This document shows, one piece after another, positions 8,911 to 30,600 of a stretch of 64,000 nt of DNA. The first letter of the stretch is position 1. Every line of letters begins with the position of its first letter. This stretch comes from Podospora anserina (lineage: Eukaryota). Under the pieces are notes generated by a model. It made no database searches. It was not told the origin of the DNA and saw nothing but the letters and a program-made list of their open reading frames with translations. Position numbers and translations under genes: made by a program. Location: contig CM030335.1 in NCBI GenBank assembly GCA_017654855.1, positions 1 through 64,000 on the forward strand, read 5' to 3'.

Positions 8911-9256
8911 AAGGTTTAATTAAAAGATATAGATATTTAGTTCCCGAACGGTTATATAATAAGCCTATCGTATAATAAAATAATATAAATATCGTATAAT
9001 AAAATAATATAAATATCGTATAATAGAATATTATATAATAATAAAAAAGTATTATATAATTCTTATACGGGGTTTATAGATTTATCGTTTATTAGTATTA
9101 TCGCCTAAAAAGTAATACAAAGATCTTAAAGCATAATAACTAAGCGATATATACGGTCTTAAAGTTTCTAGAGGTATAAGTTTAATTCTAATTAAAGCCC
9201 TTTTTTAATAAACTTTTAATCGTACAAATCAATTAACTTTTAAACAAACATTTAAA

Positions 9257-9775: not shown

Positions 9776-9819
9776 ATAAATCGTATAATAATAAAAATCG
9801 ATTAATTTTATATTTTTTA

Positions 9820-12570
9820 TTTATAATTCTATACCGTTCGTACAATAATATACTTTATACTATTTTATACAGCTCGTTCAGGCAATTTTAATAATATCTT
9901 TATTTTTTATATTAATAGGAGAAATCCCATCGGATCGTATAATTTACTTTTCTATCACCCAACCTCACTTTACTATCTACGTACATTACCAGCATACTTA
10001 TACCTAACTTCACATCTTTTACTTACAATTCCACACCACTTATACGATAATACACCTTATACTATTCTATACAACTCGTTTAATTATTTTTAATAATATT
10101 TTTACTTTTTATTTTAATATAAAAAATCCTATCGGATCGTACAACTTACTCTTCTATTACCTAACCTCACTTTACTATCTATATACATTACTAACATACT
10201 TATACCTAACTTCATATTTACCATTCACAATTCCACACCACTCGTACGATAATACACCCTATACTATTCTATACAGCTCGTTCAGGTAATTCTAATAATA
10301 TCTTTACTTTTTATATTAATAAAAAAAATCCCATCGGATCGTATAACTTACCCTTCTATTACCCAACCTTACTTTACTATTTACGTACATTACTAATATA
10401 CTTATACCTAACTTCATATCTTTTACTTACAATTCTACACCGCTCGTATAATAATATACCTTATACTATTCTATACAACTCGTTTAAACAATTTTAATAT
10501 TATCTTTACTTTTTATTTTAACGGAAGAAATCCTATCGGATCGTATAACTTACCCTTCTATTACCCAACCTTACTTTACTATCCACGTACACTACTAGCA
10601 TACTTATACCCAACTTCATATCTTTTACTTACAATTCCACACCGCTCGTACAATAATATACCTTATACTATTCTATACAGCTCGTTTAGGCGATTCTAAT
10701 ACTATCTTTGCTTTTTATTTTAACGGGAGAAATCCTATCGGATCGTACAACTTACTTTTCTATTACCCAACCTCACTTTACTATCCACGTACATTACTAG
10801 CATACTTATACCTAACTTCATATTTTTTACTTATAATTCCATACCGCTCGTACGATAATATACCTTATACTATTCTATACAGCTCGTTTAGTTATTTCTA
10901 ATAGTATCTTTACTTTTTATTTTAATAGGGGAAATCCCATCGGATCGTATAACTTACTTTTCTATTACCTAATCTCACTTTACTATCTACGTATATTATT
11001 AATACACTTATACCTAACTTTATATCTACCATTTACAATTCTACACCGCTTATACGATAATATACCCTATACCATTCTATGCAACTCGTTTAGGTAATTC
11101 TAATAGTATCTTTACTTTTTATATTAATGGGAGAAATCCTATTAGATCGTATAACTTACTTTTCTATTACTTAACCTTACTTTACTATTTACGTACATTA
11201 TTAATATACTTATACTTAACTTTATATTTTTTACTTATAATTCTATACCGCTCGTATAATAATATACCTTATACTATTCTATATAGCTCGTCCAGGCGAT
11301 TCTAATACTATCTTTACTTTTTATTTTAACGGGAGAAATCCTATCGGATCGTACAACTTACCTTTCTATTACCCAACCTTACTTTACTATCTACGTACAT
11401 TACTAGTATACTTATACCTAACTTTATATCTTTTACTTATAATTCTATACCGCTCGTATAATAATATACTTTATACTATTCTATGCAACTCGTTTAAGCG
11501 ATTTTAATAATATCTTTACTTTTTATTTTAATAGGGGAAATCCCATCGGATCGTATAATTTACTTTTCTATTACCTAACCTTACTTTACTATTTATATAT
11601 ATTATTAATATATTTATACTTAACTTTATATTTACTATTTATAATTCCATACCGCTCGTATAATAATATACCCTATACTATTCTATATAACTCGTTTAAG
11701 CAATTCTAATAATATCTTTACTTTTTATATTAATAGGAAAAATCCTATCGGATCGTATAACTTACCCTTCTATTACTTAACCTTACTTTATTATTTACGT
11801 ATATTATTAATATATTTATACTTAACTTTATATTTTTTACTTATAATTCTACACCGCTCGTATAATAATATACTTTATACTATTCTATGCAATTCGTTTA
11901 GTTATTTCTAATAATATTTTTACTTTTTATTTTAATAAGAGAAATCTTATCGGATCGTATAATTTACTTTTCTATTACCTAACCTTACTTTATTATTTAC
12001 GTATATTACTAGTATACTTATACTTAACTTTATATCTACTATTTATAATTCTATACCGCTCGTATAATAATATACCTTATACTATTCTATATAGCTCGTT
12101 TAAGTAATTTTAATAGTGTTTTTACTTTTTATATTAATAGGAGAAATCCTATCGGATTATATAATTTACCTTTCTATTACCTAACCTCACTTTACTATCT
12201 ACGTACATTACTAATATATTTATACTTAACTTTATATTTTTTACTTATAATTCTATACCGCTCGTACAATAATATACTTTATACTATTCTATATAGCTCG
12301 TTTAAGTAATTCTAATACTATCTTTGCTTTTTATTTTAACGGGAGAAATCCTATCGGATCGTATAACTTACCCTTCCATTACCCAACCTCACTTTACTAT
12401 CCACGTGCATTACTAGCATACTTATACCTAACTTTACATCTTTTACTTACAATTCCACACCGCTCGTACGATAATACACCTTATACCATTCTGTGCAGCT
12501 CGTCTAGGCGATTCTAATGCTATCTTTGCTTTTTATTTTAACGGGAGAAATCCCATCGGATCGTACAACT
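9820..12570. repeat. Tandem array of ~14 x 202-bp units
   Basis: The atcggatcgt anchor recurs every 202 bp from ~9929 to ~12555 (10131, 10333, 10535 ...). Copies differ mostly by RIP transitions. Confidence 0.97.
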
Positions 12571-12673
12571 GAATTCTTTAACGGATCCTACCCCCTATTT
12601 CTAAAGTGGGGCCTTTTTTTTGGTGCGCTTTTCAACGGATTGTACTACAATCCATCGGAGAATAACTAATAGG
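12571..12673. other. Array end cap (~103 bp) with palindrome GGATTGTA-C-TACAATCC, copy 1
   Basis: Non-array sequence immediately after the last 202-bp unit. Homologous copies lie at 17369-17470 and 27178-27279 with the same right boundary. Confidence 0.9.
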
Positions 12674-15600
12674 TATTATAGGGCTTTTAGATTTATTATT
12701 ATATTCTATAAGCCTTAAACTTAAAGGAAAAGGTATAAGCTTAATATTAATATTAAAGTATTTAACGGCTTTATTAATATAGGCTTTTTAATAAAGTTAA
12801 AAGTAACGATTTAGTTTATTACGTTCGATTTAAATATTTAAAAAATAGCGAGCTAGGCCGAGATTTTTAATATCGTAATAGTTATTTATTACTTTTTTTA
12901 AAATTTAAAGCTATAAATATTATAGGCTTATAAGTAAATAATTATTAACGTAATTAATAAAAAAAATTATATAATTCAAATAAAAATAAATAACTATATT
13001 TAAAATTAATAGCCTAAAACCTAGTACCCGGGCTATTATAAAAACCTTTTATTATTATAAGTAAAATACTTACTTAAGGCTATAAAAAAACTTTTTTAAA
13101 AATATAATTTAGTTTTTTATAGGGTCCTAGCTAGCTCTCTTAAGTAGGATTATAGCGGCTAAACTACTATAAGAAAACTCGGTTAGGCCCTACGGAAGTT
13201 TAATATATATATCGAAATCGGTTTCCGAATTTAAAAAGGTTTCTACGAAATTTATTTACTTAATATCCTAATCGAATACCGTAATAATAATTAATATAAT
13301 CCTTTAAATTAGAGGGCCTATAGTAAAAATATAGGTTTATAAAAAATTAATTTTTAAGGTTTATTAAAATCCCCGGGTAATTAACCGTACTTTATACTTT
13401 ATTATAATACCTTACGGGTTTTTCTTTTCTTTAAAAACCTAACGATTAATAATTAACCGCTTTTTAACCTTTAAACGATTAATAAAGTAAAAGGTTTTTA
13501 TTATAAAGAACTATTATATTTCTATAAATATTATTTATAATTATTAATCTTTATTAGGGTGCTTTAAAATTTATTTAAAGGTATTAGGTTTTAAAAATAT
13601 AGCCGTAAATTAAATTACTAAAGTTTTTAAGGACCTAGAGACTAAATAACTAATAAATTTAATATAATTTATTTCGTCGATAGGCTTAAACTCCTTACGT
13701 TATTCCCGAATTACTTAAGGTAGTAGGATCTTAATAGTAATAAAAGGTATTAGAATTCCAGGATCCGGTATTTAAATAAAGTCCTCTATAGGGGTTTAAA
13801 TATTTAATTTATTTTCTAAGTTATTAAACCGGTTTATTACTTTTAATAAATTAATAGAGTTCGGTAGCCTTATAAATTAAGTTTTAGGATTTTCGTAGAA
13901 CTTTATAAAGTTAATTTAAATAACTTTATTTAGGCTTAAGTAAATTAAGTAAGTTTAATAGTTAAAGATTATAAGGAATTAGCCTTTAATTCCTTTAGGC
14001 GCGAGTTTCTTTTTTAAAACCTAGCTTTTAATAAAAATATATATTATAACCTTAATATTAATAGTTTTATAATTTAAAAGGTTAAATCTATAAGTTAATT
14101 AGTTAGGAAGTAATTTATTATAAAAAGATTAATAAAGCGTAAGTTCTTTAAAGGATTATACTATTTTATTAATAATTTTAATTATAAATTAAATAATATA
14201 GTTCTAGAAAGTAAGCGGGAAGCTTAAAGTAAATATTATAGCCCTTAATCGGTTAAAAATAATATAAATAGAACGCTTTACTAAACTATTTTAGTTAGGG
14301 GTTTTAGAATTTAAAATATTAAAGTTAATACTTTTTTTTACGAAATAGGCCTTTAAAAGTAGGATTTTTTTTCCCCCGTTATAATAGAAGTGCCCTAGGT
14401 ATTTATAAAGGGAGTTTTTTAGGCTTTCGATTATTAAACGGGCTTCTTAAACGGTATTTTTTTTTAATTTTAGGGGCCGAACGAAACGGTAACGGGTCTT
14501 CCGATCCACTAAAATAAAGGCGTAAACCTTCTTCGTAAATAAAAAAAGTTTAATCGAAATAATATTTCCTTTAATCCAGCTTAAGGTAAATAAAGGGTTA
14601 TTAACGACTTACCTAAAGGGCTTACGAAGGATTTTTACGGTATTATAGCTCTTATAAATAAAATCCTTAAACCGGATTTTCTATAAATTAAATATTCCTT
14701 CGGTAATTAAAAAAGTTTTTTTTAAAAAAGTAAAGCCTATATAACTTAACCGTATATATGAAAAAATAGTAATCTCGATAAATACTATTAAAGGTTCTTT
14801 AAAAGACTTTTTAAAAGGCTTTACCGGTAAAATAATTAATATTTAATCCTTAATTCCCTCTAGAATTTTAGAGGTTTTAAATTCCTTAAGGATCGTAAGA
14901 ATCTTAAAATCCTTTAAATTACTAGAATTTTTAATATAAGCGCTATAATTATATTAGTAACTATATTTTCCGGGGCGGCTCTTTCCTTTAACTTCTAAAA
15001 AAAATCTAGATTTATCGAAGTTAAGTAGGGTAATAAGTTTTTTATTAATATCGAAAATCTTTTAATAAAATAAAGCTCCTTTAAAATAATAAAAGCACTT
15101 TTTATTTATAATATTTAATAAGAAATTTAAAATATAAAGGGTTTTAAAAAGTAAAACCGTAAAATAATAAACCTTTTCGTTCTTAATTCCGGTATAGAAA
15201 TAAACTTTTATAGTACTTTAACTTACTAGGCTTATAGGGCTACCCCTTATTTAAACCGAGCTTAGGTTTTTAAGTATTAAAAAGTTTATAAAAAAGTTTC
15301 TTTCGTTATATATATAAACGGTAGAGCCGGTATTAAAAAACTATATATTTCGAAGGCCCTTATAAACGTAGGTTATAGGGCTTCCTTTATTAAAGGAGGG
15401 ATCTTTTAAGATATTATAGAATCCTATATTAAAATTAAAGTTTATTAGGAAGGAAACCTCTATAGTATCCGCTAAAGGTAAAAAGTTTTATAAAAAATAT
15501 TTTTTAGATTTATTTTTTTTCTTTTTTTTTTTCGAGCCTCCCGAGCTTTTTAAATCTATAAAGCCTTTAGAGTTTTTTAAACCCCTTAAACCCCTTAAAC

Positions 15601-17224
15601 CCTTTAAAAATCTAGAATTTTTAGGTTTATTTTTAGGAGATTTATCGTTTTTTTAGGCCTTAAAGTGCTAAGACTATAGGGCTATAAAAGCTTAAGTAAT
15701 TAAAGTAATTAAGTTCCGGGTTTCTATAAGAAAATTATTTTAAAAAAAGGAAAGATTAAGTAATTTAGCCGGGCTTAAATACGTTTAATAACGAATTAAA
15801 GCTCTATAGCGTTTATATTACTATAGAAAATTATATTTTAAAGTATTTAAATAGTAATTAACTTAATTAGTTTCCTAAATAATTATATTTAAGCCCTTAA
15901 GCCGAAAAATAAAAGTATTAAATTTAATATTAAATTCTATTACCGTAAGGGAATTATTAAATTTTAATAAATAGTAAAATTTATAAAGTTTATTCCGAAT
16001 AATTAATTAAGTTAGGGTATATTATATTTATAAGTATAGGAAAATAGTAGCCGGAGAGTCCTCTGTTTCGATAGTTTAAAAGGGACCTTACTAAAGAGTA
16101 TTCCGGATAGTAAGGACTAGGTAAGCCTTAAGTATATTTATTAAAGTATTAGTAACTTCGGTAGGTTTATTAATAAAGTTTAAGATCCTTATAACTTTTA
16201 ATTAAATAATAAAAGCCTAAATTTATTATTAATAATTATTAAGCTTTAAAAGTTTATTTTTTTAATTAACTAGAGGGTTTATTTACTAAAGTCCTTTATT
16301 AAAAAAATAATAGCCGTAAGCGGAGTAGGAGGTATCGATAATAAAGAAGCGGAGGTAGGTATAGCCGAAAGTATTAGTATAAAGGAGTTTTTTAAACGAG
16401 GTACTAAGTTTTTAATAGAAACTTATAACGTAGTAATTTTTTTATTTTAACGAATAATTATATCTTTTAACTTTTTTATAAATTTATTAAACTAGACTTT
16501 AAAGTAGGTTTTTAATTAAGTAACGATTTACTAACTTAAAGCGGTCGGGTCGATATTTAAAGGTAAGTTAGGAAGGGGAGGGACGTTCCCTATCTCTTTA
16601 TTTATTATAAAAAACGAAGGTCTAAAAAGTAGGACGTTAATTAATAAATATAAAATTAAGTATTTTAATTTTAGGGCTTAGTAGCCTATAAGAATAGAGT
16701 TTACGGTAAAAAACCGCTATAGGAACGTAAAATAAAGGAATTTGCTAAAATTTAAATATAAGTCCGGGCTTATAATTTATTAAAATATATCGTCGGTAGG
16801 CTAATTATATACCTTCTAAGTAGGTCGGAAGTAATTACTTAAAGACTTTGGGGTTCTTGGACTGCGAGGTACGACGGTGTGAGGTAGTACCGAAGGAAGG
16901 CAAGTATAGGGAACTATGCCCTACAAAAGTATAGTAAACTAGTATATTGATTTTGATTATCTAACTTAAACTTAAAAAAAAAAAAGATTATTCTAAATAC
17001 ACTGGGAGGGGAGCCTTTTATAGGTATCCAAAACCTTTTTTTCCTCCTTATCAATCCCCACAACTTCTACCAGTTCAGTTAGCCACAGTAGCTTATATAA
17101 AAACTTTGTAGTTCCTTATAACCGCTATGGGCGTTATGGGCGCTATGGCTTGAAGCCTTTGAGTGCTGTAAGCCACGAGAAAGAACATACTGTAAAATCC
17201 ACAAATAAGTGCTGTATTTTAACA
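12670..17224 (-). mobile_element. Copia (Ty1) LTR retrotransposon family A, 3'-truncated, RIPed
   Basis: Reverse complement of 29334-~33888. 5' LTR at 16778-17224 (447 bp, ends aaca on +). PBS GGTTATGAGCCC-like at 16766-16777. Breaks inside RT at the cap junction, so RNase H and the 3' LTR are missing. Confidence 0.93.
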
Positions 17225-17470
17225 CTTAACTTTATATTTATTATTTACTATTCTACACCGCTCGTACAATAATATATCCTATATCATTCTATATAGCTCG
17301 TTTAGGTAATTCTAATAATATCTTTTTTTTTTATTTTAATAAAAAAGATTTTATCGGATCGTATAACTAAATTCTTAACGGATCCTACCCCTTGTTTCCA
17401 AAGTAGGGCGTTTTTTTTAGTGCGTTTCTCAACGGATTATACTACAATCTATCAGAGAATAACTAATAAA
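17225..17470. repeat. Remnant 202-bp unit plus end cap, copy 2
   Basis: cttaactttatatt...atcggatcgtataact followed by aaattcttaacggatcctacccc...acggattatactacaatctatcagagaataactaataaa. Confidence 0.92.
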
Positions 17471-17548
17471 TATTATAATTATCGTTAGGTAGGAAAAACC
17501 GTATTAACGACTTTATTATAATAAAGTTTAAAGGCTTTTTAGGGATTT

Positions 17549-20500
17549 TATTATAACCCTAGTACAGGACGGTTATAGGGCTACAGGAATAAAAGGCTAA
17601 TCGGGAAAACGTATAGGGGAGCTAATTATAGTAAAAGTAAAGTAATTAATGTAATTAAGGCACTAAGTAAATTAAGTAAAAGTAATTAGTGTAATTAAGG
17701 TACTAAGTAAACTAAGTTAAGGTAATTAATAACTTTAGGAGACTAATTACGGCTTAATATAAGGACTATATATACAGAGGAACTGGCTAATATAAATAAA
17801 TAGTTCCGTAATATATAATTTAAATTTATATTTACGGAATTTAGTATTTATATTAAAATATTTTATTATATACTATTTAGTTACACTAAATTAATTATTA
17901 GAAATTACCTTTAACTAGTATCCTTTTTAAAGGTTCTATATAGAGGTTCGTTATACGTTATATACTTACTTTAATTTTATTACGGATAAAATAAAGGTAT
18001 TAAGTTAACGCTATAGCCGGAAACGTTAATACTTAAAGGATTTCGACCCAACTTACTATTAATTAACTTCTCGCTCGTATTTAAAAACTTAAAGATAAGT
18101 TACGCCTTTTTTATAATACCTTTACGTAAAAGAACGCTATACTCTATTAGGAAATTAATATTTTACGTAAGGAGGAAAAGTATATTAAGCTCGAAGTACC
18201 CGATTATTATAAAGGCGTAAAGGGAAAGATAGGAGGGTTCCTAATTTAATTTAAGGCTTATTTTCGGTACTACTTTTTTAATTTTTTAAACGAAGAATTT
18301 TAGGTTATATATATTACGTTCTGGCTTAAAGATAAAGTACTTATTTAGTTTAAGCCGATTTTAGGAGATTATTTCGATAATAAGTACGACGAGAGGGAAG
18401 ATATTACGAAAAAGTATTTTAAGTTATATAAAGGTTTTAAAGAGAAGATTAAAGAGGTATTTAAGGAATACGACGAGGGTAAGCGTACTTAAAAGCGATT
18501 GGTTAATTTTAAGTAAACTCGATTTATTATCGATTACATTATAGTATTTAAGATAAATATATTTTATAGTATAATTAACGATAAAGGGTTAATATAATTA
18601 TTTTATAATAGGTTTAAAGAAAAAATTAAAAATAAGTTATATCGAATAGAGCGACCGGAGATTATTAACGAGTATATTATAATAGTAGTTTGTATTAACG
18701 ATCGATAATATTAGTGCCGTAAAGAGTGTAAGGGTATATACGTATAAAAACCCTATTACTTTAACGATAAAAGAAAGAAACGGCCGTACGGGATTTACGT
18801 TTCGGGGATTATATATATATGGTTTATAGAAATTAATATTATTTAATAATAAAAGCTGTAAAGCTAAAGTAGAAATAATTTTAAGTATTTTAATTATAGT
18901 AAAGTAAAATACTTTAAGAAGGACTATAGGGTATTTAAGTAATTCGGATAGAAAAGAAAGATTATAGTAATTACTATATTAAAGGACTAAGAATTATAAA
19001 GGTTATAATTATCGGGTATTAGTAAAGTAAAGTAAAGAACCGTTATTAAATATATATATAAAAAAATACTAAATATATAAAAGACGGAAGATAGGAGGAA
19101 ACTAAACGGATATAATTAAAAAATTTTATATTATTAAATAACCTAAAGTAAAAGGATACTTTTAAACGATATAACCGTTTAGGAAACGATTTATAGCTTT
19201 TTACGGAAACCGGTAATTTTTAACGGATTACGAACGGTATTTTCGAAGGTATTAGTGTAAAGCGAAAGTATAGGATAACGATCCGGTATTCGTTAGCGAG
19301 GTTATTACTATATAGGGAGGAGGTAAAAGAAATAAATATTTTTAAATTATAGCGTATTAAAAAAATATTTAAGCTATAATATTAATAAACGGTAATACGG
19401 AAACGAATTTAATTTTATTATAGTTCGTATACTAGGTTAGAATACTATAGAAAAAAAAGAAGGAATAGATTGTTATATAAAAACTATTTCTAATATAAAG
19501 AGTTTATAGAAAAATATTACTTTTAAATATTATAATTAAAAGAAAAATAACTTTAATTATATTCGATATTATAAATATAGGACCCTCGAAGGATATAATT
19601 TTAGGGTAATTATAATATAAAGATTATAATTTAAATATCGATTGGAGGGATAGTAATTATTTATAATTAAAAAAGCTTTAAAAGTATTTAATTAACGATA
19701 GGAGATTAAAAGTATATATAAAATAAAGTATAAAATAAATACCTTCTACGGTATTACTATAAAGAACCTAAAAAGTAATAGTATATTCTATCGATATAGG
19801 CGGTAAGATCAAAGAAATAAGGTTAACGACGTTAGTGGAAATATTAAAGGTTAATAAATATATTTATTATAATAATATAGAAAAAGGTAAGAAAAAGGCG
19901 GTACTAGTAAAATATTAAGGATACTTAGCTTTTACGGTTAAATATTTAAAGGGGCTTTTAAAGCGAAGACCGTAGAATTACGAAATTAAGTTAAAAGAAA
20001 GAGCTAAGCTACGGCTATTTAAAGTTTACTATACTAATAATAAATAAAGTAACGAACTACGGAAATATTTAAACGAAAATTTTAAAAAAAAATATATTAA
20101 GGAGTCTATATCGCTAATAAAATACCCCGTATTTTTTATACTAAAAAAAAATAATAATTTATAATTATATATAGATTATTATTAATTAAATAATAAAATA
20201 ATAAAAAATAATTATCCGTTACTATTAATATTTAAGTTACGAAGTTAATTAGTAAAGGCGTAATACTTTATATATTTAAATATATTTATCGAGTACGCTT
20301 ATATATAAATTAAAGAAAGAAATAAATAAAAAATAATATTTTATATACCTTATAATTATTTCGAGTATTTCGTAATACTATTTAAACTAATTAATATACC
20401 CGCAACGTTTTAATTTTTTATTAACTATACGATTCGGAAGTACTTCGATAAGATAGTAATATATTATTTTAACGATATTTTTATTTATTTACGTACTTTA

Positions 20501-23500
20501 AAGGAATATAAGTAATATATATAAAAGATATTTAATATATTATACAAAACTAAACTTTTAATTAATAAAAAGAAAATAAGTTTTATATATAAAAAATAAT
20601 GTATTTAGAATATTTAATATTACTAAATAAAGTTTATATAGAATTTAAGAAAATTATAGTAATTAAAAATTAGTTTACGTTATAATTATAAATATATATT
20701 AAAGAATTTTTAAGGTTTATAAATTTTTACTAGATATTTATTCGAAGGTACGTAAGTATTACGTAATTATTTAATTATTTAACTAAGAAGGACGTAGAGT
20801 TCCGGTAAAGGTAGGAAGAAAAGTAGGCCTTTTAGGAGCTAAAGGAGGCTATTTTAAAGGATTTAGTACTTAAATTATTAAACTTTAATCGACTGTTCGA
20901 GGTTAAAGTAAATATATTAAACTATACGATCAGTAAATAATTAAGGTAGCGAAACGACGATAGTAAGTTATATCCAGTAATCTTTTTTTCGAAGAAGCTT
21001 AAAGAAATACGTTAAAACTATTTAATTTATAATAAAAAGTTATTTATTATTATCGAAGTATTTAAAGAATAAAGATTATACTTTAATAATATTAAATATA
21101 AAATATAGGTCTATACGGATTATAAAAATCTATAATATTTTATTATTACGAAGGTCCTTAATATATAATAAATACGATAATTAAAGTTTCTTTCGGAATT
21201 TAATTTTTAAATTAATTATAAAAAGGGTTCGGAGAATACTAAAGTAAACGTACTTAACCGGCGAACCGACTACTATAAGGATATACTTAAAGAGTTACTA
21301 TTATTATTTAAAGAAACGCTAAAAGGTATTTTTAAATATTTATTTTAACCGTAAATAAAGTATTACGTAGTATATCGTAAGTAAGTTACTTTTAATAATA
21401 AATATTAAAGAAGGCTAGGTAACGATATTATAGAGTAATATTAGTAAAAAAAATTAAAGTTATAAGGTATTTAAAGGGATAGTTAAGAAAGATTATAATA
21501 TAAAAATCGAATGTACGTAATGCTAAATAATAAAATAATATTAATAATAAAAATTTACGGATCGAAGTTCGGAAAATATATAAGTATCGCGAAGATTATA
21601 AAAAAAATTAAGTAGTACTTTAATTAATTAAAGATTAAAGACGACGTTAAAGAAGCTATTTAGTTATACTATATATACGAGAAAATAAAAGTTACGAAGT
21701 ATAAGCCTTATAGATTTTTAAAGATATTATTAATAGTAAAACGATTATAAAGTTTAATTATAATAAACTTTATTATTAAATTACTAAAATTAAAAAATAT
21801 AATAACCGGCGTTAAATATAATAATATATTAACGGTAGTTAATAAGCTTACTAAATAAATATATTTTTTACTTTATAAAGAAACCTAATCGGTAAAGTAA
21901 TTAATAAATATAGTATTATAGTATATTATATTAATATATATATAATTAAAAAAATTTATTACGGACCGCGATATTAAATTCGTATCGAAATTTTAAAAAA
22001 TATTAATAACGAGGCTAAAGGTAGTAAGTAAAGCGTTATCGGCCTATTACCCTTAAATAAACGGTTAAACGGAACGGTTTAATTAAATTATAAAATAATA
22101 TTTACGGAATTATATTAATTTCGAGTAAAACGATTAAATTAAACTATTATTTATAGTATAATAAATATATAATATATTACTAACTAAAACGATTAAAGCT
22201 ATACTGTTTTTCGTAAACTTTAAATATAAAGTAGACCTATAGTAAAAACTAAATATAAAAGTATTTAGGGCTAGGGTTAAAGTAAATAAACTATATATAT
22301 TGTATAGTAAATTTAAATAAGAATTAAAATTTATAAAGGAAAAAATACGGAAATACTATAATATTAAAAAGTTTAAGGGACTTTACTTTAAGGGGGAAAA
22401 TATAATATTCTTTTCTATATATAATTTACGTACTAAAAGATTTAGTAAAAAACTAGACTATAGGAGAGTAGGCCTATTTAAGGTTAAAATAAAAATCTTA
22501 AAAACGGTATTCGAATTAAAGCTACCTAATACGATACGTTTATAGTTATATACTTTTTATATTTTACTTTTAAAACCTATATTACCGGTAAGTAAAGTTA
22601 ATATATAAGTAATAGCGGAGAACGAAAAAAAAGAATATAATATAAAGAAAATATTAAATTTACGGTTTAATAAAAATTAATTAAAGTATTTAATTAATTA
22701 ATTAAGATATCTAGCTATAAATAATTTATAAAAACTATAGGTATATTTTAATTACTTAAATAAATAAAAAAACTTTTATTAATAATATTTAAACCGATTA
22801 AAATTTAAGTAAAAGAAATAAGTTTTTAAATTACCGCTAAATAGTAATAATATAGAAATTAAAAAATTTTAATAAAAATCGAACCTATATTTATAATATA
22901 ATAATTAACGTACTATATATTATACTATAAAATTAAAAAATATAAAGGGAATTAAATATAAGTAGTACTATGCGCTTTAACTACTTTAAAAAAAGGAAAG
23001 CGCGCCGCTAGCGGTATTTTAAATAACGAGGAAGGAAGGACCGGCTATATTAAAATTAAGAGATAGGTCGTCCGGCAAAAACTAACTAGGCTAGTTTAAT
23101 ATATCGGAAGCTTAGTTAAAGGAAAAGGCTAAAGAAAAATTAATAACGGAAAAAACTTACATTTCTTTTTATTTTAGATCCTTAATTACTCGCTCCTTAC
23201 GAATAACTAAGCGACGGAATTTAATAATTAAAACACAATACTAAATATTTACTTACGAAAGTTTCGAAGTAACTTATAATATAACCGTATAAACCTATTA
23301 TTTATTAATATTTAATTTTTTTTAATAATATAGGGAAGCTATTAACGCGGAAATAAAGTTTAAAATATTATAGTCGGAGCGACCGGAATATATATAGTAA
23401 TTATATTTAGAAGAGCGTTCGGAAGTGCGGTAATCGGGGATATTAAGGGCTTCGTAGGAAGAATAGGAAAGTATTTCGTTACTGAAGATAAAAGTAGCGG

Positions 23501-24080
23501 CTATAAGATTCTAACGGCGAAGGGTATTCGAAAGACCTTTTAGCGTAGATTTCTTAACGCGGTTAAATATTATGGAAGGATAGTAACGAGGGAGGAAAAC
23601 TTATTTAAAGTTATCGATAAGAGAGATAAACGAGCTAAGCTATCGGGGCGTTAGCCTAAAAGGGGGAGGATTATATTATAACCCTAATATAAAACGGTTA
23701 TAGGGCTACGGGAATAAAAGGTTAATCGAGAGAATATATAGGGAAGTAAATTATAGTAAAGGTAGAGTAATTAATATAATTAAAGTATTAAGTAAACTAA
23801 ATAGAGGTAATTAGTGTAATTAGGGTATTAAATAGACTAAGCCGAGGTAATTAGTAACCTTAAGAAACTAATTACGGCTTAGCATAAAGACTATATATAC
23901 GGAGGAACTAGCTAGTATAAATAAATAATTCCGTAATATATAATTTAAGCTTATATTTACGGAATTTAATATTTACATTAAAATATCTTATTATATATTA
24001 TTTAACTATACCGAACTAATTATTAAAAATTACTTTTAATTAGTATCCCTTTTAGAGGTTCTATATAGGGGTTCGTCACA
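17549..24080 (+). mobile_element. Full-length Gypsy/Ty3 chromovirus, crapaud-like, RIPed
   Basis: 407-bp LTRs at 17549-17955 and 23674-24080; 5-bp TSD GATTT; PPT aaaagggggagga. RT YFNDIFIY (=YLDDILIY) at ~20465; integrase YYP*INGQTER-like motif at ~22045; chromodomain relic at ~22630-22790. Confidence 0.95.
22900..23570 (-). pseudogene. Antisense accessory ORF of the chromovirus with a six-Cys (Zn2Cys6-like) motif, RIPed
   Basis: Minus strand reads ILSYSSYEALNIPDYRTSERSSKYNYYIYSGRSDYNI, de-RIPed MPSCSSCEALGIPDCRASERSSKCNHCVRSGRSDCDV. The 3' end is approximate. Confidence 0.6.
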
Positions 24081-24187
24081 GATTTATATATAACGCTTAA
24101 GGATTTTTTAAAGAAAATATTTATAAGCGTAAGTAAAGACCGAGCTAGTAAATTACTATTTAACTTTTAATTAACTTTAAAAATTAT

Positions 24188-24818
24188 TATTAGTTAGTAA
24201 GCCTTAATAGGCCTATAATATAAAACCTATATAGGGTTACTATAAAATACAGCAGTGCGCAAGCGGAAGCGGGAGGATACAACGGCAGTGCCGAAGGAAG
24301 GTAAAGCACTATAATACAGTAAAGTATAAGGAATAAAAATTGCTTTTATTACCCTTAGCTTTGGCCTTTAGCCTTAGCTTTAAGCTTTTGCCCTTAAGGA
24401 AAGAAAGAGAACTATTCTACAAGACAGAGGAGAGGTCTATATATAGGCCTTCGTAAGCCTACTGTAGGTCCTGTAGGCTCTAAAAGCCCCTATACCACTT
24501 TGGGGTATTTGGTGGGCTTAGGTGGGTCTAGTATAGACTCACGGAAATCTATAGAACTTTCGGCAGCAGAGGTGCCTGTAAATCACATTATTATAGTAAC
24601 TTACTACGTAAGCCTGTAGCCACTTTAGAAGGTTTTAGTATTTATTAACTAAGCCTTAGGCCACAGTAGCTCTGTAAGCCTTTAAGGGTCCCTTATAAAG
24701 AATATTCTAAAGGGATCTAAGCCGGGAAGTTCTATTACTACTTATAGCATTACTGCCCACTATAATATTAATCTGTAGGGCAGTAAGTAGGGCACTTAAT
24801 AGTACCTACACATTAATA
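24188..24818. mobile_element. Solo LTR family C (~630 bp)
   Basis: RIPed TGTTAG...CATTAACA termini; reverse complement of 27627-27639 + 40767-41376. Flanks do not form a TSD. Confidence 0.85.
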
Positions 24819-25152
24819 ATATAAAATAATGTAAATATAATTATAAATTATATACTATAGAACTATTTATTTATATTAATTAGTTCCTCCGTATATATAA
24901 ATCTTAAGGCCCTAAGGTACTCGCCCTACTACGGCCCCGATTACTTATAGTATATTATATCCTATAAAGTGTTTATCGTACTATACTTTTAATTACTCGT
25001 AGTATTTTATATCCTATAGAGTATTTATATATCTTAGCGCTATAGTACTTTCGTTTAACCCTAATTAACTATCTCCTAACTTTTTTAATAATTAGTTAGG
25101 GACGTCCTACGCCCTATATATAGCGCGGCTTACTATTAGCTTAATTATAATA
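24819..25152 (-). mobile_element. Truncated crapaud-like solo LTR
   Basis: Contains the conserved tagttcctccgtatatata core but a different variable half; cut on the left by LTR C. Confidence 0.75.
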
Positions 25153-25932
25153 AAAGGTTTATATATAGGCCTTCGTAGGCTTACTATAGGTGTAACGAAC
25201 CCCTATATAGAACCTTTAAAAGGGATACTGGTTAAAGGCTACTTCTGATAATTGGTTCGGTGCGGCTAAATAGCGCACAATAAAATGTCTTAATGTAAAC
25301 ACAAGATACCGTAAATATAAGCTGTAAATTGCATACTGCGGAACTATCTATCTACACTAGCCAGTTCCTCCGTATATATAGACCCTGTGCCAAGCCTAGC
25401 ACTGTCCTGGATCGATTAACTCGACTATCGATCCTATCGATACTGTCCCTTTTGGGATTGACCTCTTCTGGATCGATCCTCGATCCTAATAATCCTGCTC
25501 TAATTGGTCCTCGCTCCTGTATTAATGATTGGCCCGTAGTGCGCCCCGCGCCCTACCAAAGTGTTAAGCCGTGACAATAAGTCCTGTAGGCCCTAAAAGC
25601 CCCTATACTACTTTAAGGTATTTAGTAAGCTTAAGTGGGTTTAATATAGACTTACGGAAATCTATAGAACTTTTGGTAGTAAAGATACCCTATAAATTAT
25701 ATTATTATAATAACTTATTACGTAAGTTTATAGCTACTTTACAAACTTCTAATATTTATTAATTAAACTTTAGGCTATAGTAGCCCTATAAGCCTTTAAA
25801 GGTCCTTTATAAAGAATATTCTAAAGGGATTTAAGCCGGAAAGTTCTATTATTACTTATAATAGTACTGCCCACTATAATATTAATTTATAGGGCAATAA
25901 GTAAGGTACTTAGTAATACCTATATATTAATA
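25153..25932. mobile_element. Partial solo LTR family C, interrupted by a crapaud-like solo LTR
   Basis: 25153-25190 + 25577-25932 is colinear with 24431-24818. Confidence 0.85.
25191..25576 (-). mobile_element. Crapaud-like solo LTR, nearly un-RIPed
   Basis: TGTAACG...CGTGACA termini, 386 bp, TSD atagg/ataag. Retains many CpA/TpG dinucleotides. Confidence 0.93.
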
Positions 25933-26120
25933 ATTTTATATTTATTATATATTATTATCTATTATTTATATTATAATATATTTTATATTTTTTATATAGC
26001 TCGTAAAAGTAATTTTAATATTATTTTTATTCTTTATTTTAATAAAAGTTTTTTTAGTAGATCGTATAATATACTATTCCATTACTTAACCTTACGTTAC
26101 TATCTATATATATTACTAGC

Positions 26121-26451
26121 TATTACGGACCTAATATAAGTAGGGAGCGCGGGGCGCGACCTATTTAACTATTAGGAACGGAAAAGTAGGGAAGTTAAAT
26201 TATTATTAGCGCTAAAAGTAATAATCGATATTATTATTAATAATAATAATAATAAATAGGTTTATATATACGGAGGAACTAACTAACGTAAATAAATAAT
26301 TCTGTAATATATAATTTATAATTATATTTATAGTATTTTGTATTTATATTAAAGTATTTTATTATATACTATTTAGCTATACCGAACTAATTATTAAAAA
26401 TTACTTTTAACCTATATCCCTTTCAGAGGTTCTATATAGAGGTTCGTTATA
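26121..26451 (+). mobile_element. Crapaud-like solo LTR inserted in a 202-bp unit
   Basis: tattacgg...ggttcgttata termini, conserved 3' half, TSD ctagc/ctaat (RIP-altered). Confidence 0.88.
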
Positions 26452-26660
26452 CTAATATACTTACACCTAACTTTATATTTATTATTTCCTATTCTATACC
26501 GCTCGTACGATAATATATCCTATACTATTCTATGTAACTAGTTTAACCGATTTTAATAATATTTTTCCTTTTTACTTTAGTTAGAAAAATCTTATCGGAT
26601 CGTATAACTAAATTCTTAACGGATATTACTTACTTTACTATTTACGTATATTACTAGTAT

Positions 26661-27022
26661 TAAAATAGTAAGAAAATATATAAAATAATTATAATACTAT
26701 AAATATACTTTTAATAGGTCTCTAATAAATATATTTACGTAATAGTAATTCGCTTATAAGCCGTACTTTACGTAGGATAAAGAAAAAACACTATAGGCTC
26801 GCAGGCCATATAATAAGCACCGGATTAGCCTAATTAGAGGGCTAGAATTGCCTATACGCATATAAGGTATAAAATACGAAGAAAAATAAAAGTCGATGTT
26901 CTGTCTAAAATAAAATGTCCGAAGTAAACTACTTATATATATAGCTCCCCTGAACCCCTGAGTCTTCTGAGCGCCCCGCTTCCTTACTTATACTTTTAGG
27001 CCTATAGCCGTACCTTAAACTA
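26661..27022 (-). mobile_element. Solo LTR family B inserted in a 202-bp unit
   Basis: 362 bp homologous to 27640-28002; 4-bp TSD gtat/atat. Confidence 0.9.
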
Positions 27023-27440
27023 ATATATTTATACCTAACTTTATATTTACTATTAATAAATCTATAACGCTCGTACGATAATATACTTTATACTATTCTA
27101 TACAGCTCGTTTAAACAATTTTTATAATAGCTTTCTTTTTCGTTTTAGTAAGAAAAATTTTATTAGATCGTATAACTAAATTCTTAACGGATCCTACCCC
27201 CTATTTCTAAAGTGAGGCGTTTTTTTTAATGCGTTTCTTAACGGATTGTACTATAATCCATCGGAGAATAACTAATAGGATATTCGGCTATAAATAATTT
27301 ATAAGAATTAAAAGTAAATTTTAATTATTTTAATAAATAAAAAGTATTTTATTAGTAATACTTAAAACGATTAAAGCTTAAGTAAATAAAAGATTAGTAT
27401 TTAGGTTTATAGGTAATACTTATAAATCTAAATACCGAAA

Positions 27441-27510
27441 AACCTCGATAGAAATCGAACCTATACCTTTAATATAGTAATCGATATACTATATATTATA
27501 CTACGAGGTT
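27441..27510 (-). pseudogene. RIPed tRNA-like sequence, copy 1
   Basis: 70 nt bounded by a perfect 7-bp acceptor stem AACCTCG/CGAGGTT. T-arm ATAGG-TTCGATT-TCTAT (B box) and A-box-like TAGTATAAT. The anticodon loop appears to be 6 nt. Confidence 0.7.
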
Positions 27511-27639
27511 AATAAGTACGAAAGAATTTAAAATTAACTAATATTATATGCTTTTATTATAATAAAAAAAAGTCGAAAGTATATTATTAATAAAATAATT
27601 AATAAAATAATATTTAAATTTATAAATATTAATGTATAG

Positions 27640-30600
27640 TGAAATAGTGAGAAAACACACAAAACAACTATAACACCACAAATATACCCTTAATAGGTTT
27701 TAGAATAAATATACTTACGTGATAGTAACTCGCTCGCAGGCCGCACTTTACGTAGGATAAAGAAAAGACACTATGGGCTCGCAGGCCATATAATAAGCAC
27801 TGGATTGGCCTGATTAGAGGGCTAAAATTACTTACACGCGTATAAAGCATAAAATATAAAAAAAAGAATAAAAGTCGATAATCTATTTAAAATAGAATGT
27901 CCGAAGTAGACCGCTTATATATATAACCCCTAAACCCCTAAGTCTTTTAAGAGCCCCGCTTCCTTACTTATATTTTTAGGCCTATAGCCGTACCCTAAAC
28001 CAAACCTCCCTTCGTATTTAACTACTATAAACTAGTAAGTAAATACGTATATAAGAAAAAAAATCTTTTATAAATTAAAAAAAAAAAAAAATATCGTTTA
28101 ATAGAAAAAAGGAAAAGAAATATAATCTTACTATCCCCTTATTTATTTTCCTTTAATTAAAGAGAAAAACACCTTTACTTTTCGGATCTTAAAATATACT
28201 TCCGTCCCTATCGAATTATTATAATTAATAACCTAATAACCTCCTCCCTTTATCTCTAAGGAACTCTAGGAGCCTACTCCTATCCTATAAAATTAAATAT
28301 ATAATTAAGCGAAAGGTAGGTTATTAATAATCCTAAGTAATTATAAATAGGAGGACGGGTAATTATAGGTTTAAAGAGGAGTAACGAGTTTATTATTATA
28401 AAAGTACGGAATTTAAAGGGGGTTACTACCTTACTTAATTATTAAAAGTTATTTAATATATTACTTAATTTAAACCCTTTATAATTAAAGGAAAAATCTA
28501 TAATATATTTATTTTTTTTAATAATAATAATTAAAGTTAATAGAGAATTAAAGAAAGAAAAATAATAAGGAATTAGTAAAGATTTAAAAAGAAATAAGAA
28601 GGTATTTAATAAATTAAATCCTTCCGCGTCTATTAAGTCCTTTAGGCCCCTCCTCCTCTATTTCTTATTATACACCTTTTAATTAAGTTTATAACTTAAA
28701 GACTTTTTTATATAAGCTATTTATAACCTTATTATTTTTTTCCCTATAACGCTTACGGTCTTACAGTCTTTATAATAACGATCTCCTCTCTAAGCCTTTA
28801 TTACCGTTAAATCCTCTTCTTTACTATACAAAATACTTCCCTAAAAATAAATATAGTAATACTTTAAAACTTAAAAACTATATTCCTATACCCCGCCCTA
28901 TTTACCGTAAGCTAACCTCCTTACTTTTATATTAAAATTATAATAAAAAGCGTAACGGATATAAAATACTAAATAAAAAATAATATTAATTTAATACCCC
29001 TTTTAATTTTTTAATAAATTTATATAAATTAAAATATTAATAATAACGTCGTAAATATTTATTATTTAATAGTTTCCGTTATTAATATAAATAGGAAAGA
29101 CTTAATATTATTAGTTAAAAGTATTATAATTATTATTAAATAGGAAAAGGCGTATTAATAATTTTATTATAATAGGGTTTAAAAGTTTTCTAGGGATCTA
29201 TATATAACGTTTAAAGATTCTTTAAAGAAAGTACCGAAGAACGTAAGTAAGGACCGAGCTAATAAATTATTATTTAACCTCTAATTAATTTTAAAGATTA
29301 TATATAATATAAGTAAAGGAAATTATATAAATATGTTAAAATATAGCACTTATTTGTGGATTTTACAGTATGTTCTTTCTCGTGGCTTACAGCACTCAAA
29401 GGCTTCAAGCCACAGCGCCCATAACGCCCATAGCGGTTATAAGGAACTACAAAGTTTTTATATAAGCCACTATAGCTAACTAAACCGGTAGAAGTTATGG
29501 GGATTAATAAGGAGGAAAAAGAGGTTTTGGATACCTATAAAAGGCTCCCCTCCCAGTGTATTTAGAATAATCTTTTTCTTTTTTAAATTTAAGTTAGATA
29601 ATTAAAATTAATATATTAATTTACTATACTTTTATAGAGTATAGTTCCCTATATTTACTTTCTTTCGGTACTACCTTATACCGTCGTACCTCGTAATTCA
29701 AGAACCCTAAAGTCTTTAAATAATTACTTCCGACCTACCTAAAAGGTATATAATTAATTTACCGATAATATATTTTAATAGGTTATAAGCCTAGACTTAT
29801 ATTTAAGTTTTAACGAGTTCCTTTATTTTATATTCCTATAGCGGTTTCTTACTGTAAGCTCTATTTTTATAAGCTATTAAACCCTAAAATTAAAATACTT
29901 AACTTTATATTTATTAATTAACGTTTTACTTTTTAGGCTTTCGTTTTTTATAATGAATAAAGAAATAGGGGACGTCCCCCCCTTCCTAACTTACTTTTAA
30001 ATATCGACCCGACCGCTTTAAGTTAGTAAATCGCTACCTAATTAAAAATTTATTTTAAAGTCCAGTTTAATAAACTTATAAAGAAATTAAAAGATATAGT
30101 TATTTATTAAAATAAAAAAATTACTACGTTATAGGTTTCTATTAGAAATTCGGTACCTCGTTTAATAAACTCCTTTATATTAGTACCTTCGGCTATACCT
30201 ATCTCCGCTTCCTTATTATCGATACTTCTTACTTCGCTTACGGCTATTATTTTTTTAATAAAGGACCTTAATAAGTAAACCCTTTAATTAATTAAAAAAA
30301 ATAAACTTTTAAAGCTTAATAATTATTAATAATAAATTTAGGTTTTTATTATTTAATTAAGGGTTATAAGGATTTTAAACTTTATTAGTAAACCTACCGA
30401 AATTATTAATACCCTAACGGATATATTTAAAGTTTATTTAGTTTTTACTATCCGAAATATTTTTTAGTAGGGTCCCCTTTAAACTATTAAAGTAAAGGAC
30501 TTTCCGGCTATTATTTTCCTACGCCTATAAGTATAGTATACCTTAGCTTAGTTAGTTATTTAAAATAAGTTTTATAAGTCTTACTATTTACTAAAATTTA

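What the first reader, a model, noticed from the sequence alone, without database searches (positions are those of the whole stretch)
12571..27279. The same array+cap terminus occurs three times, each fused to unrelated broken DNA: a record of serial chromosome-tip replacement
Seen: a ~103-bp cap follows the last 202-bp unit at 12571-12673, 17369-17470 and 27178-27279, always ending at ...GAATAACTAATAGG (RIPed ...TAAA in copy 2). Right-hand neighbours are the middle of Copia RT, the middle of a Gypsy-B internal region, and a tRNA-like repeat spacer. Neither retroelement has its missing part on the other side, and there is no TSD. Only the most distal copy keeps the full array, both genes and the telomere. 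Inference: telomere-minisatellite-TLH-DUF3716-array-cap (1-12673) is a discrete ~12.7-kb unit with one defined end. It repeatedly joined onto the subtelomere and deleted everything distal, leaving stumps of older copies. Together with the YR motifs this suggests a one-ended, telomere-carrying mobile element.
Basis: partly seen in the sequence, partly recalled or inferred. Interest (0 to 1): 0.93.

Follow-up and report, generated by a model that had tools for sequence, protein, structure and literature searches.

The report
Stacked stumps of telomere-helicase end units
At this Podospora chromosome end, a dead telomere-linked-helicase block with a fixed inner edge sits on two stumps of older copies, each joined to broken transposon DNA; this looks like a fossil record of repeated end loss and re-capping, of a kind already known in other fungi.

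Summary
The last 202-bp unit plus a ~102-bp cap occurs three times, always on the + strand. The copies are 80-83% identical, and 99-100% identical once C/T and G/A are merged, so RIP accounts for the differences. Homology stops within a few bases at 12673, 17470 and 27279. Each cap abuts internal retroelement DNA that is cut off on its telomere side. There is no target-site duplication and no missing half elsewhere in the window. New here: 5, 3 and 4 nt of microhomology at the three joints. The distal copy carries 9 RIP-type changes against 39 and 39.

The 12.7-kb unit runs telomere, minisatellite, RIP-dead RecQ-type TLH gene read towards the telomere, tandem arrays, sharp inner boundary. This matches TLH region I of Magnaporthe oryzae and resembles the TLHcr of Fusarium oxysporum. 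So "discrete unit with one defined end" and "serial tip replacement" are supported from within the window, but the kind is known.

DUF3716 and a tyrosine recombinase were not found. The cap has no telomere repeats at its edge. What fixes the donor end is unexplained; a Helitron-like terminus is a weaker rival.

The parts
3..126 (+). Terminal telomere repeat (CCCTAA) x20.7
144..2620 (.). Telomere-adjacent minisatellite (30/60/82/96-bp units, each with GCGGTTAG)
2937..3321 (-). Solo LTR of family S (inverted copy) between the minisatellite and the TLH 3' end
3380..8350 (-). RIP-dead RecQ-type telomere-linked helicase pseudogene. Measured: helicase core 4233-5375 and N-terminal part 6012-6995. 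The outer limits are extrapolated from 1409-1657-aa homologues.
8241..8911 (.). 57/137-bp (and 19-bp) tandem repeats just upstream of TLH. One motif recurs in the middle of the cap.
9803..12570 (+). 202-bp array, 13.7 units
12571..12673 (+). Cap copy 1 (youngest: 9 RIP-type changes). The last 5 nt, ATAGG, are shared with the Copia target (microhomology).
12674..17224 (-). Copia copy 1, cut just after RT. RNase H and the 3' LTR are missing. Its 5' LTR terminus (…TTTTAACA) lies in array 2.
17225..17368 (+). Remnant of array 2 (0.7 unit)
17369..17470 (+). Cap copy 2 (39 RIP-type changes)
17471..17548 (+). V fragment, left part (continues at 24086-24187). It is a copy of 29122-29301 and is the recipient DNA of joint 2.
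17549..24080 (+). Gypsy-A, full length. LTRs start at 17549 (5' LTR, extent ~17549-17955 inferred from the 407-bp 3' LTR) and span 23674-24080 (3' LTR). RT_RNaseH ~20818-21200, integrase SH3 ~22408-22582. An ordinary later insertion into V with TSD GATTT.
24086..24187 (+). V fragment, right part
25931..27177 (+). Array 3, about 3 units in three pieces (to 26120; 26465-26660; 27023-27177). It is split by two solo LTRs (26121-26464 and 26661-27022), each with a 4-5-bp TSD.
27178..27279 (+). Cap copy 3 (39 RIP-type changes)
27280..27617 (+). Recipient DNA of joint 3: a 5'-truncated piece of the 3' internal region of the Gypsy-A family, holding a tRNA-Arg-like sequence (27440-27510, minus strand).
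27618..40766 (.). LTR-bounded structure B (S2 27618-28002, S3 40403-40766, 90% identical) with Copia copy 2 nested inside (29334-35042, TSD AAATA). It holds the reference copy of V.

Best explanation
[quoted passage not shown] The layout is telomere, minisatellite, TLH read towards the telomere, compound tandem arrays upstream of TLH, then a discrete inner boundary (the cap).

I read the history as follows. The end of this chromosome was lost at least three times, each time by a break inside retroelement DNA that had settled in or beside the previous unit. Each time the centric stump was re-capped by a whole TLH unit from elsewhere in the genome. The unit was joined or copied starting at the same donor base, through 3-5 nt of microhomology (...ATAGG). 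Everything distal to each break was lost. What remains is 3 units plus cap (oldest), then 0.7 unit plus cap, then the full unit.

Shown: the fixed boundary, three different truncated recipients, microhomology at the joints, a common orientation, no TSD, the TLH identity and layout, and the lower RIP load of the distal copy.

Inferred: that the donors were other chromosome ends; that the process was end capture or microhomology-primed copying (MMEJ or BIR-like); and that the events happened at this chromosome end.

Unknown: what fixes the donor end. Candidates are a break-prone or fork-stalling site at the palindrome and T8 run in the cap, or a linear or circular free form of the unit.
For: - Three cap copies, all on the + strand, and no others.
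- Boundary sharpness: 0.86-0.91 identity on the left against 0.34-0.41 on the right, with background 0.305 +/- 0.058. The caps are 99-100% identical when transitions are merged.
- J1: Copia cut after RVT_2. The sister copy reads TTTATAGG|TATTATAGGG where the window reads CTAATAGG|TATTATAGGG.
- J2: V is a copy of 29122-29301.
- J3: homology to Gypsy-A 22703-23014 begins 4 nt inside the cap.
- Homology of the recipients reaches 5, 3 and 4 nt into the cap. The chance of this is about 0.032 x 0.164 x 0.067 = 3.5e-4, using frequencies measured in the RIPed block.
- The missing Copia interior is absent from the rest of the window.
- Ordinary insertions nearby do keep their TSDs despite RIP: Copia 2 AAATA and Gypsy-A GATTT, and two solo LTRs in array 3. 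The lack of a TSD at the caps is therefore meaningful.
- RIP-type changes against the inferred ancestor: 9, 39 and 39 for copies 1, 2 and 3 in 245 columns.
- TLH: E = 1.4e-25 to a 1657-aa protein with DEAD, Helicase_C, ResIII and PF12013 domains; 19 hits in all. tblastn maps the helicase core to 5375-4233 on the minus strand.
- The middle of the cap shares a motif with the 19/137-bp repeats next to TLH.
- Precedents, from passages read: the M. oryzae TLH region I array forms a 'near' boundary beyond which 7 subtelomeres turn into unique sequence, and TLH-ends diverge within 1-2 nt of each other (PMC1635262). F. oxysporum TLHcr are 6-13 kb, single or in arrays, full or truncated (10.1101/2024.02.27.582403). 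Failed telomeres in the blast fungus are repaired by duplicative capture of other subterminal sequence (PMC8381367).
Against: - No other chromosome end of this genome or of any relative could be examined. No genome is held, and a metagenome scan gave only 2 chance AT-rich hits. So 'unit present at many ends' and 'donors elsewhere' are untested.
- A BIR or end-joining process does not by itself explain why the donor point is the same to within 5 nt three times.
- Unlike yeast Y' and Fusarium TLHcr, there are no telomere repeats at the boundary. A RIP-tolerant scan gave 22 matches: 19 in the terminal tract and none within 4 kb of a cap.
- The cap end (palindrome GGATTGTACTACAATCC, then 12 nt, CTAA, T) also fits a rolling-circle transposon terminus.
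- Copies 2 and 3 have equal RIP loads, so RIP does not show their relative order.
- The TLH gene limits are extrapolated, and the TLH-specific motif and C2H2 fingers were not checked in the pseudogene.
Confidence: 0.55

Rival explanations
1. The array plus cap is the 3' end of a separate transposon, either Helitron-like rolling-circle or another HUH-type element, and is not part of the TLH unit. It inserted three times into retroelements. The element's own 5' parts and the distal halves of the targets were later removed by array-array ectopic recombination and terminal truncation.
For: - The cap ends with a perfect 8-bp-stem palindrome, then 12 nt, then CTAA followed by T.
- There is no TSD.
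- In the sister Copia the base before TAGG is A, so J1 fits an A|T target.
- A tandem array lies next to the terminus.
- For M. oryzae chromosome ends, the authors explain one-sided loss of disrupted transposons by ectopic recombination (PMC1635262).
Against: - All 3 copies lie within 27 kb of the telomere and point the same way.
- All three targets would have to begin with TAGG (or its RIPed form), which Helitrons do not require.
- No Rep or Pif1 domain appears in the parts scanned with Pfam: 2701-9800 in six frames, 12674-16780 in six frames, 17950-23650 in plus frames.
- The cap does not fold better than shuffled sequence: z = -0.39, -0.09 and +0.79.
- The cap shares a motif with the repeats next to TLH.
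- The layout copies the M. oryzae TLH region, where such arrays belong to the unit.
Confidence: 0.17
2. RNA-mediated terminal addition, of the HeT-A/TART or Zepp type, or like Ty1-mobilised Y'. A transcript running from the telomere side to a fixed 3' end at the cap is reverse-transcribed, primed by the 3' end of the broken chromosome through the 3-5 nt match.
For: - The geometry fits: a fixed end faces the centromere, older copies are truncated on the distal side, the order is head-to-tail, and there is microhomology without a TSD.
- Retroelement reverse transcriptases are plentiful nearby.
Against: - There is no A-run or other tail at any joint.
- No RT is found in the unit.
- TLH lies on the opposite strand, so the template would have to be a >10-kb antisense RNA.
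- The T8 run lies 50 nt before the end, not at it.
Confidence: 0.08
3. There is no special end. The coincident boundaries would come from unrelated insertions and deletions, or from misassembly of a repeat-rich end.
For: The region is a mosaic of nested and rearranged elements. This includes an inverted duplicate of 40579-41420 at 24152-25044.
Against: - Three boundaries agree to within 5 nt, and none of the three neighbours starts at its own terminus.
- The copies differ by 17-20%, mostly through RIP-type transitions, so they are not assembly duplicates.
Confidence: 0.04

Closest known systems
TLH region I of Magnaporthe oryzae (Rehmeyer et al. 2006, PMC1635262; passages and section 22 read)
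   Same: A telomere-adjacent unit with short tandem repeats, a RecQ-type TLH gene with compound tandem arrays upstream on the centromere side, and a discrete inner boundary. Beyond that boundary, different ends carry different sequence, and the point of divergence agrees to 1-2 nt. Transposons pile up proximally, and terminal truncation is frequent.
   Different: There, the boundary falls in the telomere-like CCTAACC of the 14-bp HAR-C unit, and the units are live and sit at many ends. Here the array unit is 202 bp and is followed by a 102-bp cap with no telomere motif at its edge. The gene is RIP-dead, only one chromosome end was seen, and older boundaries lie stacked behind the current one.
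TLH-containing regions (TLHcr) of Fusarium oxysporum (Salimi et al. 2024 preprint, 10.1101/2024.02.27.582403; abstract and sections 14-15 read)
   Same: Discrete 6-13-kb TLH units at most chromosome ends, single or in arrays, full-size or truncated.
   Different: TLHcr always have telomere repeats on both sides. Here the stumps are separated by broken retroelements.
Y' elements of Saccharomyces cerevisiae (as summarised in PMC1635262 section 22; the rest recalled)
   Same: A helicase-bearing subtelomeric unit with fixed ends, 1-4 tandem copies, and spread to new ends when telomeres fail.
   Different: Y' moves by recombination in the flanking TG1-3 tracts (recalled). Here the joints show only 3-5 nt of non-telomeric microhomology.
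Terminal retrotransposon arrays: Drosophila HeT-A/TART, Chlorella Zepp, MoTeR/FoTeR (named in PMC1635262 section 26 and in the PMC12857005 abstract listing; details recalled)
   Same: What it works like: a fixed end towards the centromere, distal truncation of older copies, and head-to-tail stacking at the tip.
   Different: No reverse transcriptase, no poly(A) or telomere-like joint, and the only gene lies on the other strand.
Helitrons
   Same: No TSD, a subterminal palindrome, and CTAA plus T near the end.
   Different: No Rep/Pif1 gene was found, the opposite end is unknown, TAGG is shared at all three targets, and the element is seen only at the chromosome tip here.

Membership tests
TLH-containing distal subtelomere unit (M. 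oryzae region I / F. oxysporum TLHcr / yeast Y') | Lies directly next to the terminal telomere repeats | tested here: met
   CCCTAA x20.7 at 3-126, with the unit following
TLH-containing distal subtelomere unit (M. oryzae region I / F. oxysporum TLHcr / yeast Y') | Encodes a RecQ-type telomere-linked helicase | tested here: met
   A pseudogene. Helicase_C E = 0.004, below the Pfam cut-off. E = 1.4e-25 to 1409-1719-aa DEAD/Helicase_C/PF12013 proteins. tblastn maps it to 5375-4233 and 6995-6012 on the minus strand.
TLH-containing distal subtelomere unit (M. oryzae region I / F. oxysporum TLHcr / yeast Y') | TLH-specific motif and C2H2 fingers in the protein | not tested
   The homologues carry PF12013, but the RIPed N-terminal part of the pseudogene was not aligned for these motifs.
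TLH-containing distal subtelomere unit (M. oryzae region I / F. oxysporum TLHcr / yeast Y') | Tandem-repeat block upstream of TLH that ends in a discrete boundary shared by copies with different neighbours | tested here: met
   Repeats at 8241-8911 and 9803-12570, then the cap. Three copies share one boundary with three different neighbours.
TLH-containing distal subtelomere unit (M. oryzae region I / F. oxysporum TLHcr / yeast Y') | Present at several chromosome ends of the genome | not testable with these tools
   No genome is held, and laying of reads gave nothing.
TLH-containing distal subtelomere unit (M. oryzae region I / F. oxysporum TLHcr / yeast Y') | Telomere repeats or a telomere-like motif at the inner boundary (Y', TLHcr, HAR-C) | tested here: not met
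   No (YYYTAA)3 match within 4 kb of a cap. CCTAAC occurs in 9 of 14 array units, but not at the boundary.
Helitron | Rep (HUH) plus Pif1-type helicase gene, or a related autonomous partner | tested here: not met
   None in the Pfam scans of 2701-9800 (6 frames), 12674-16780 (6 frames) and 17950-23650 (3 frames). The rest of the window and the genome were not scanned.
Helitron | 3' CTRR end with a subterminal hairpin, inserted between A and T without a TSD | tested here: inconclusive
   CTAA lies 4 nt inside the shared boundary. The palindrome is intact only in copy 1, and the fold is no better than shuffles. J1 fits A|T.
Helitron | Conserved 5' TC end | not testable with these tools
   No copy in the window shows an opposite end.
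Telomere-specific non-LTR retrotransposon (HeT-A/TART, MoTeR, Zepp) | Reverse-transcriptase or gag ORF on the element strand, with a poly(A) or telomere-like tail at the proximal joint | tested here: not met
   No RT in 2701-9800. No tail at any joint.
Tyrosine-recombinase element (Crypton / Starship) | YR (DUF3435 / integrase) gene within the element | tested here: not met
   No such Pfam match in six frames of 2701-9800 at E<=0.01.

The most novel reading that the evidence does not exclude
The Podospora TLH unit is, or was, a self-contained, one-ended, telomere-carrying DNA element. A function of the unit or of the host makes a free end exactly at the cap, and that end is attached to broken chromosome tips through a few bases of pairing. 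It needs no telomere-repeat homology and no reverse transcription. That would make it a DNA counterpart of Drosophila terminal retrotransposons, and a mechanistic explanation for the unexplained discrete boundaries of TLH regions in other fungi.
Probability: 0.2. Interest if true: 0.75.

Novelty: new member of a known kind. Interest (0 to 1): 0.42.

Why it matters
TLH units with sharp inner boundaries are described in several fungi, but how they reach new chromosome ends is not settled where no telomere repeats flank them. This window preserves three successive joints of one such unit to broken transposon DNA, readable base by base despite RIP. All three show a fixed donor base and 3-5 nt of pairing. 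If the same edge is found at other ends of Podospora genomes, it would give a concrete, testable model of chromosome-end healing by unit capture, and a first description of TLH units in Podospora. My four literature searches and a term search of the 2008 genome paper found no such description. If it is not found at other ends, the finding remains a tidy but ordinary fossil of subtelomere turnover.

Tried and rejected
1. Whole genome: none is held.
2. Sequencing runs for 9000-13500. Of 24 runs listed, 20 hold part of the stretch. Two hold half or more (0.73 and 0.61, same sample); the others hold 0.17-0.43. This might reflect presence/absence differences between strains at joint 1. None of the runs was laid, so it is no evidence.
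3. Laying contigs of four runs on 12230-28100.
4. Metagenome scan with a RIP-tolerant 32-nt cap pattern. It gave 2 contigs, both unrelated AT-rich chance matches: no BLAST similarity to the window, confirmed by reading them.
5. Earlier notes of this scan, by place, by sequence and by words. Nothing on this genome; only unrelated rotifer and Naegleria notes.
6. My own wrong turns:
   - I first took cap 2 to abut the first base of a Gypsy LTR, and cap 3 to abut the terminus of a SINE. Finer BLAST and alignment showed V between cap 2 and the LTR, with a clean Gypsy TSD. They also showed that the cap-3 neighbour is an integral part of the Gypsy family.
   - A supposed 16-bp TSD around the 360-bp insert in array 3 is really a 5-bp TSD of a solo LTR.
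7. Cap hairpin as a structural signal: no better than shuffled sequence.
8. Pfam on structure B: no domain in all six frames of both 35048-40402 and 28003-29333.
9. Names for the TLH homologues: none on record.
10. Javerzat et al. 1993 on Podospora telomeres: not held.

Full report
**What the window is.** It begins with (CCCTAA)x20.7 at 3-126, so it is a left chromosome end. The first ~44 kb have 19-37% G+C; the rest has about 50-55% and carries genes. No ORF longer than 138 aa lies wholly within the RIPed block; two longer ones start at ~43.8 kb, at its proximal edge. From 44 kb on lie a short-chain dehydrogenase, an NRPS-like reductase and a polyketide synthase. The reductase is 99% identical to a protein named from Podospora comata, and 77-88% identical to proteins of Cercophora, Triangularia and Apiosordaria. 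The window therefore comes from the Podospora anserina species complex. No whole genome is held for it.

**The observation.**
- Tandem Repeats Finder gives a 202-bp array at 9803-12570 (13.7 copies).
- The array ends at unit position 144. A ~102-bp cap follows.
- BLAST and a profile search with the cap find exactly three copies in 64 kb, at 12571-12673, 17369-17470 and 27178-27279. All are on the + strand and none has an inverted partner.
- A profile of the unit finds remnants before each cap, each ending at the same unit position.
- Over 245 aligned columns the copies are 79.9-83.3% identical. Summed over the three pairs there are 115 transitions and 20 transversions.
- With C=T and G=A merged, the caps are 99-100% identical. 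The divergence is therefore RIP.
- Identity is 0.86-0.91 in the 90 nt left of the boundary. It is 0.34-0.41 in the 90 nt right of it, against 0.305 +/- 0.058 for random pairs from the RIPed block.
- The boundary is real and sharp.

**The neighbours.**
- Joint 1. 12669-17224 is an inverted copy of 29334-33887 (87%). The full sister element (29334-35042) has 420-bp LTRs and a perfect AAATA target duplication. The copy at the cap lies on the minus strand. Its RVT_2 match ends about 75 nt from the joint. RNase H and the 3' LTR, 1161 bp, are missing, and the missing interior occurs nowhere else in the window. The Copia's other end, an intact LTR terminus, sits in the last unit of array 2.
- Joint 2. 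I first misread this joint. Finer comparison shows ~180 bp ('V', 17471-17548 plus 24086-24187) that copy 29122-29301. They are split by a full-length Gypsy (17549-24080; RT_RNaseH and integrase SH3 on the + strand) with a clean GATTT duplication. The Gypsy is therefore an ordinary later insertion, and cap 2 abuts V. The other copy of V lies 1.1 kb inside a structure bounded by two 365-bp TG...CA repeats that are 90% identical (27618-28002 and 40403-40766), and it continues leftwards with no likeness to the cap.
- Joint 3. 27280-27617 holds a tRNA-Arg-like sequence. It is colinear with the part of the Gypsy family that lies between the integrase and the 3' LTR (22703-23070, and again at 41377-41611 followed by LTR remnants). 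It is thus a 5'-truncated retroelement interior.
- So all three caps abut internal retroelement DNA whose telomere-side part is gone.

**The joints.** At joint 1 the sister Copia reads TTTATAGG|TATTATAGGG and the window reads CTAATAGG|TATTATAGGG, so 5 nt are shared. In the transition-merged comparison, the homology of the three recipients to their relatives starts 5, 3 and 4 nt inside the cap. Using frequencies measured in the RIPed block, the joint chance is about 3.5e-4. There is no TSD at any cap. Yet five of five ordinary insertions nearby that I checked keep theirs through RIP: Copia 2, Gypsy-A and two solo LTRs in array 3, in addition to... — more precisely, four insertions were checked and all four keep a TSD. 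There are no telomere repeats at or near any cap: of 22 RIP-tolerant matches, 19 are in the terminal tract and the other three are at 22265, 22478 and 36740.

**What the unit is.** A read-through translation of 4101-6200 (minus strand) finds 19 proteins of 1409-2861 aa. The best has E = 1.4e-25 and carries DEAD, Helicase_C, ResIII and PF12013 domains. Two of the hits are named RecQ or superfamily II helicase by their source. tblastn places the helicase core at 5375-4233 and an N-terminal part at 6995-6012. By extrapolation the gene ran from about 8350 to about 3380, towards the telomere. Just upstream of it lie 57/137-bp repeats (8241-8911), AT-rich short repeats, about 740 bp, the 202-bp array and the cap. 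A motif in the middle of the cap recurs in the 19/137-bp repeats. This ties the cap to the unit rather than to a foreign element. DUF3716 and a tyrosine recombinase were not found in six frames of 2701-9800 at E<=0.01.

**Comparison with what is known.**
- Magnaporthe oryzae (PMC1635262; passages and section 22 read). All TLH ends share the organisation upstream of TLH, up to a compound tandem array that ends 181 bp from the start codon. That array forms a 'near' boundary beyond which seven subtelomeres turn into chromosome-unique sequence. The ends diverge at the first or second C of the HAR-C unit. The authors compare this with yeast X/Y'.
- Fusarium oxysporum (preprint; abstract and sections 14-15 read). 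TLH-containing regions of 6-13 kb flank 79-92% of ends. They occur singly or in arrays, full or truncated, always with telomere repeats on both sides.
- Colletotrichum higginsianum (PMC5576322; one passage). Helicase-bearing subtelomeric repeats lie in one orientation between the telomere and unique sequence.
- Botrytis cinerea preprint. It links TLH copies to a 'Helitron-like' repeat, so named only for its helicase.
- The Podospora block is therefore a member of a known kind. Four literature searches and a term search of the 2008 Podospora genome paper found no description of TLH units in Podospora.

**How it most likely came about.** The simplest history reads from the inside out.
2. Transposons entered its array. 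Two solo LTRs with TSDs are still there.
4. A Copia entered the last unit of that array.

Each event removed everything distal. This explains why no recipient has its other half, why only the proximal parts of older units remain, and why all copies point one way. The RIP load agrees for the last step: 9 RIP-type changes in copy 1 against 39 and 39. It does not order copies 2 and 3. Duplicative capture of other subterminal sequence after telomere failure is documented in the blast fungus (PMC8381367; passages).

**What stays unexplained.** Microhomology-primed copying or end joining would give the 3-5-nt matches. By itself it does not explain why the donor point is the same three times. If invasion were random along a 12.7-kb unit, the coincidence would be of the order of 1e-7. 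In yeast and Fusarium, flanking telomere repeats explain the fixed edge; here there are none. Candidates are:
- a break-prone or fork-stalling site at the cap, which holds a 17-nt palindrome and a T8 run;
- a free form of the unit that ends there;
- a sequence-specific nick.

I could not test any of these.

**Rivals.**
- A Helitron-like terminus is the main one. The palindrome, 12 nt, CTAA and then T, together with the lack of a TSD, fit. If the element ended at CTAA, the TAGG would come from the target, as it does natively in the Copia. Against it: all three targets would have to start with TAGG; the fold is no better than shuffles; no Rep or Pif1 was seen in the parts scanned; the copies are tip-restricted and co-oriented; and the cap is tied to the TLH repeats.
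- RNA-mediated addition fits the geometry. It lacks a tail and an RT, and the strand is wrong.
- Chance or misassembly is unlikely, given RIP-diverged copies and three boundaries that agree.

**Limits.** Everything rests on one 64-kb window. The single read-laying run returned nothing. The run search shows only that 20 of 24 listed runs hold part of 9000-13500, with shares from 0.17 to 0.73. Unlaid, that is not evidence. The metagenome scan gave two chance hits. The key prediction, that the same cap marks the inner edge of TLH units at other ends, is therefore open.

**Verdict.** The kind is known and this is a new member of it. The feature worth following up is the set of fixed-end, microhomology joints without telomere repeats.

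Noticed in passing
window 43873-64000: The RIPed block ends abruptly at ~44 kb, directly against a secondary-metabolite cluster: a short-chain dehydrogenase, an NRPS-like adenylate-forming reductase (47470-50409, minus strand), a non-reducing-type PKS (52934-57472) and an old-yellow-enzyme-type oxidoreductase.
   Followed up: partly
window 24152-25044 vs 40579-41420: An inverted duplicate that includes the junction between LTR S3 and its flank. It is therefore a segmental (fold-back-type) duplication rather than a transposition. A second partial copy lies at 25577-25934 and abuts array 3.
   Followed up: partly
window 27440-27510 (minus); also ~22863-23070 and 41377-41611: A tRNA-Arg(TCG)-like sequence (Rfam 33.1 bits) sits in a stretch that recurs at the same place, between the integrase and the 3' LTR, in two other Gypsy-family copies. 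It looks like a conserved part of that retroelement family.
   Followed up: partly
window 144-2620: The telomere-adjacent minisatellite carries GCGGTTAG in each ~30-bp unit. This is a telomere-like GGTTAG in the orientation opposite to the terminal CCCTAA tract.
   Followed up: no
window 22265-22282 (minus): A three-repeat telomere-like tract (one mismatch to a RIP-tolerant pattern), in inverted orientation, inside the Gypsy-A interior.
   Followed up: no
window 26590-26625: An internal unit of array 3 carries the first ~16 nt of the cap and then resumes the normal unit tail. The last ~20 nt of the cap resemble unit positions ~120-143. The cap therefore looks like a variant unit bracketed by a short repeat ending in ATAACT.
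   Followed up: partly
window 2937-3321 (minus): A solo LTR of family S lies inside the terminal unit, between the minisatellite and the TLH 3' end. In M. oryzae this interval is reported to be almost free of transposons (PMC1635262).
   Followed up: no
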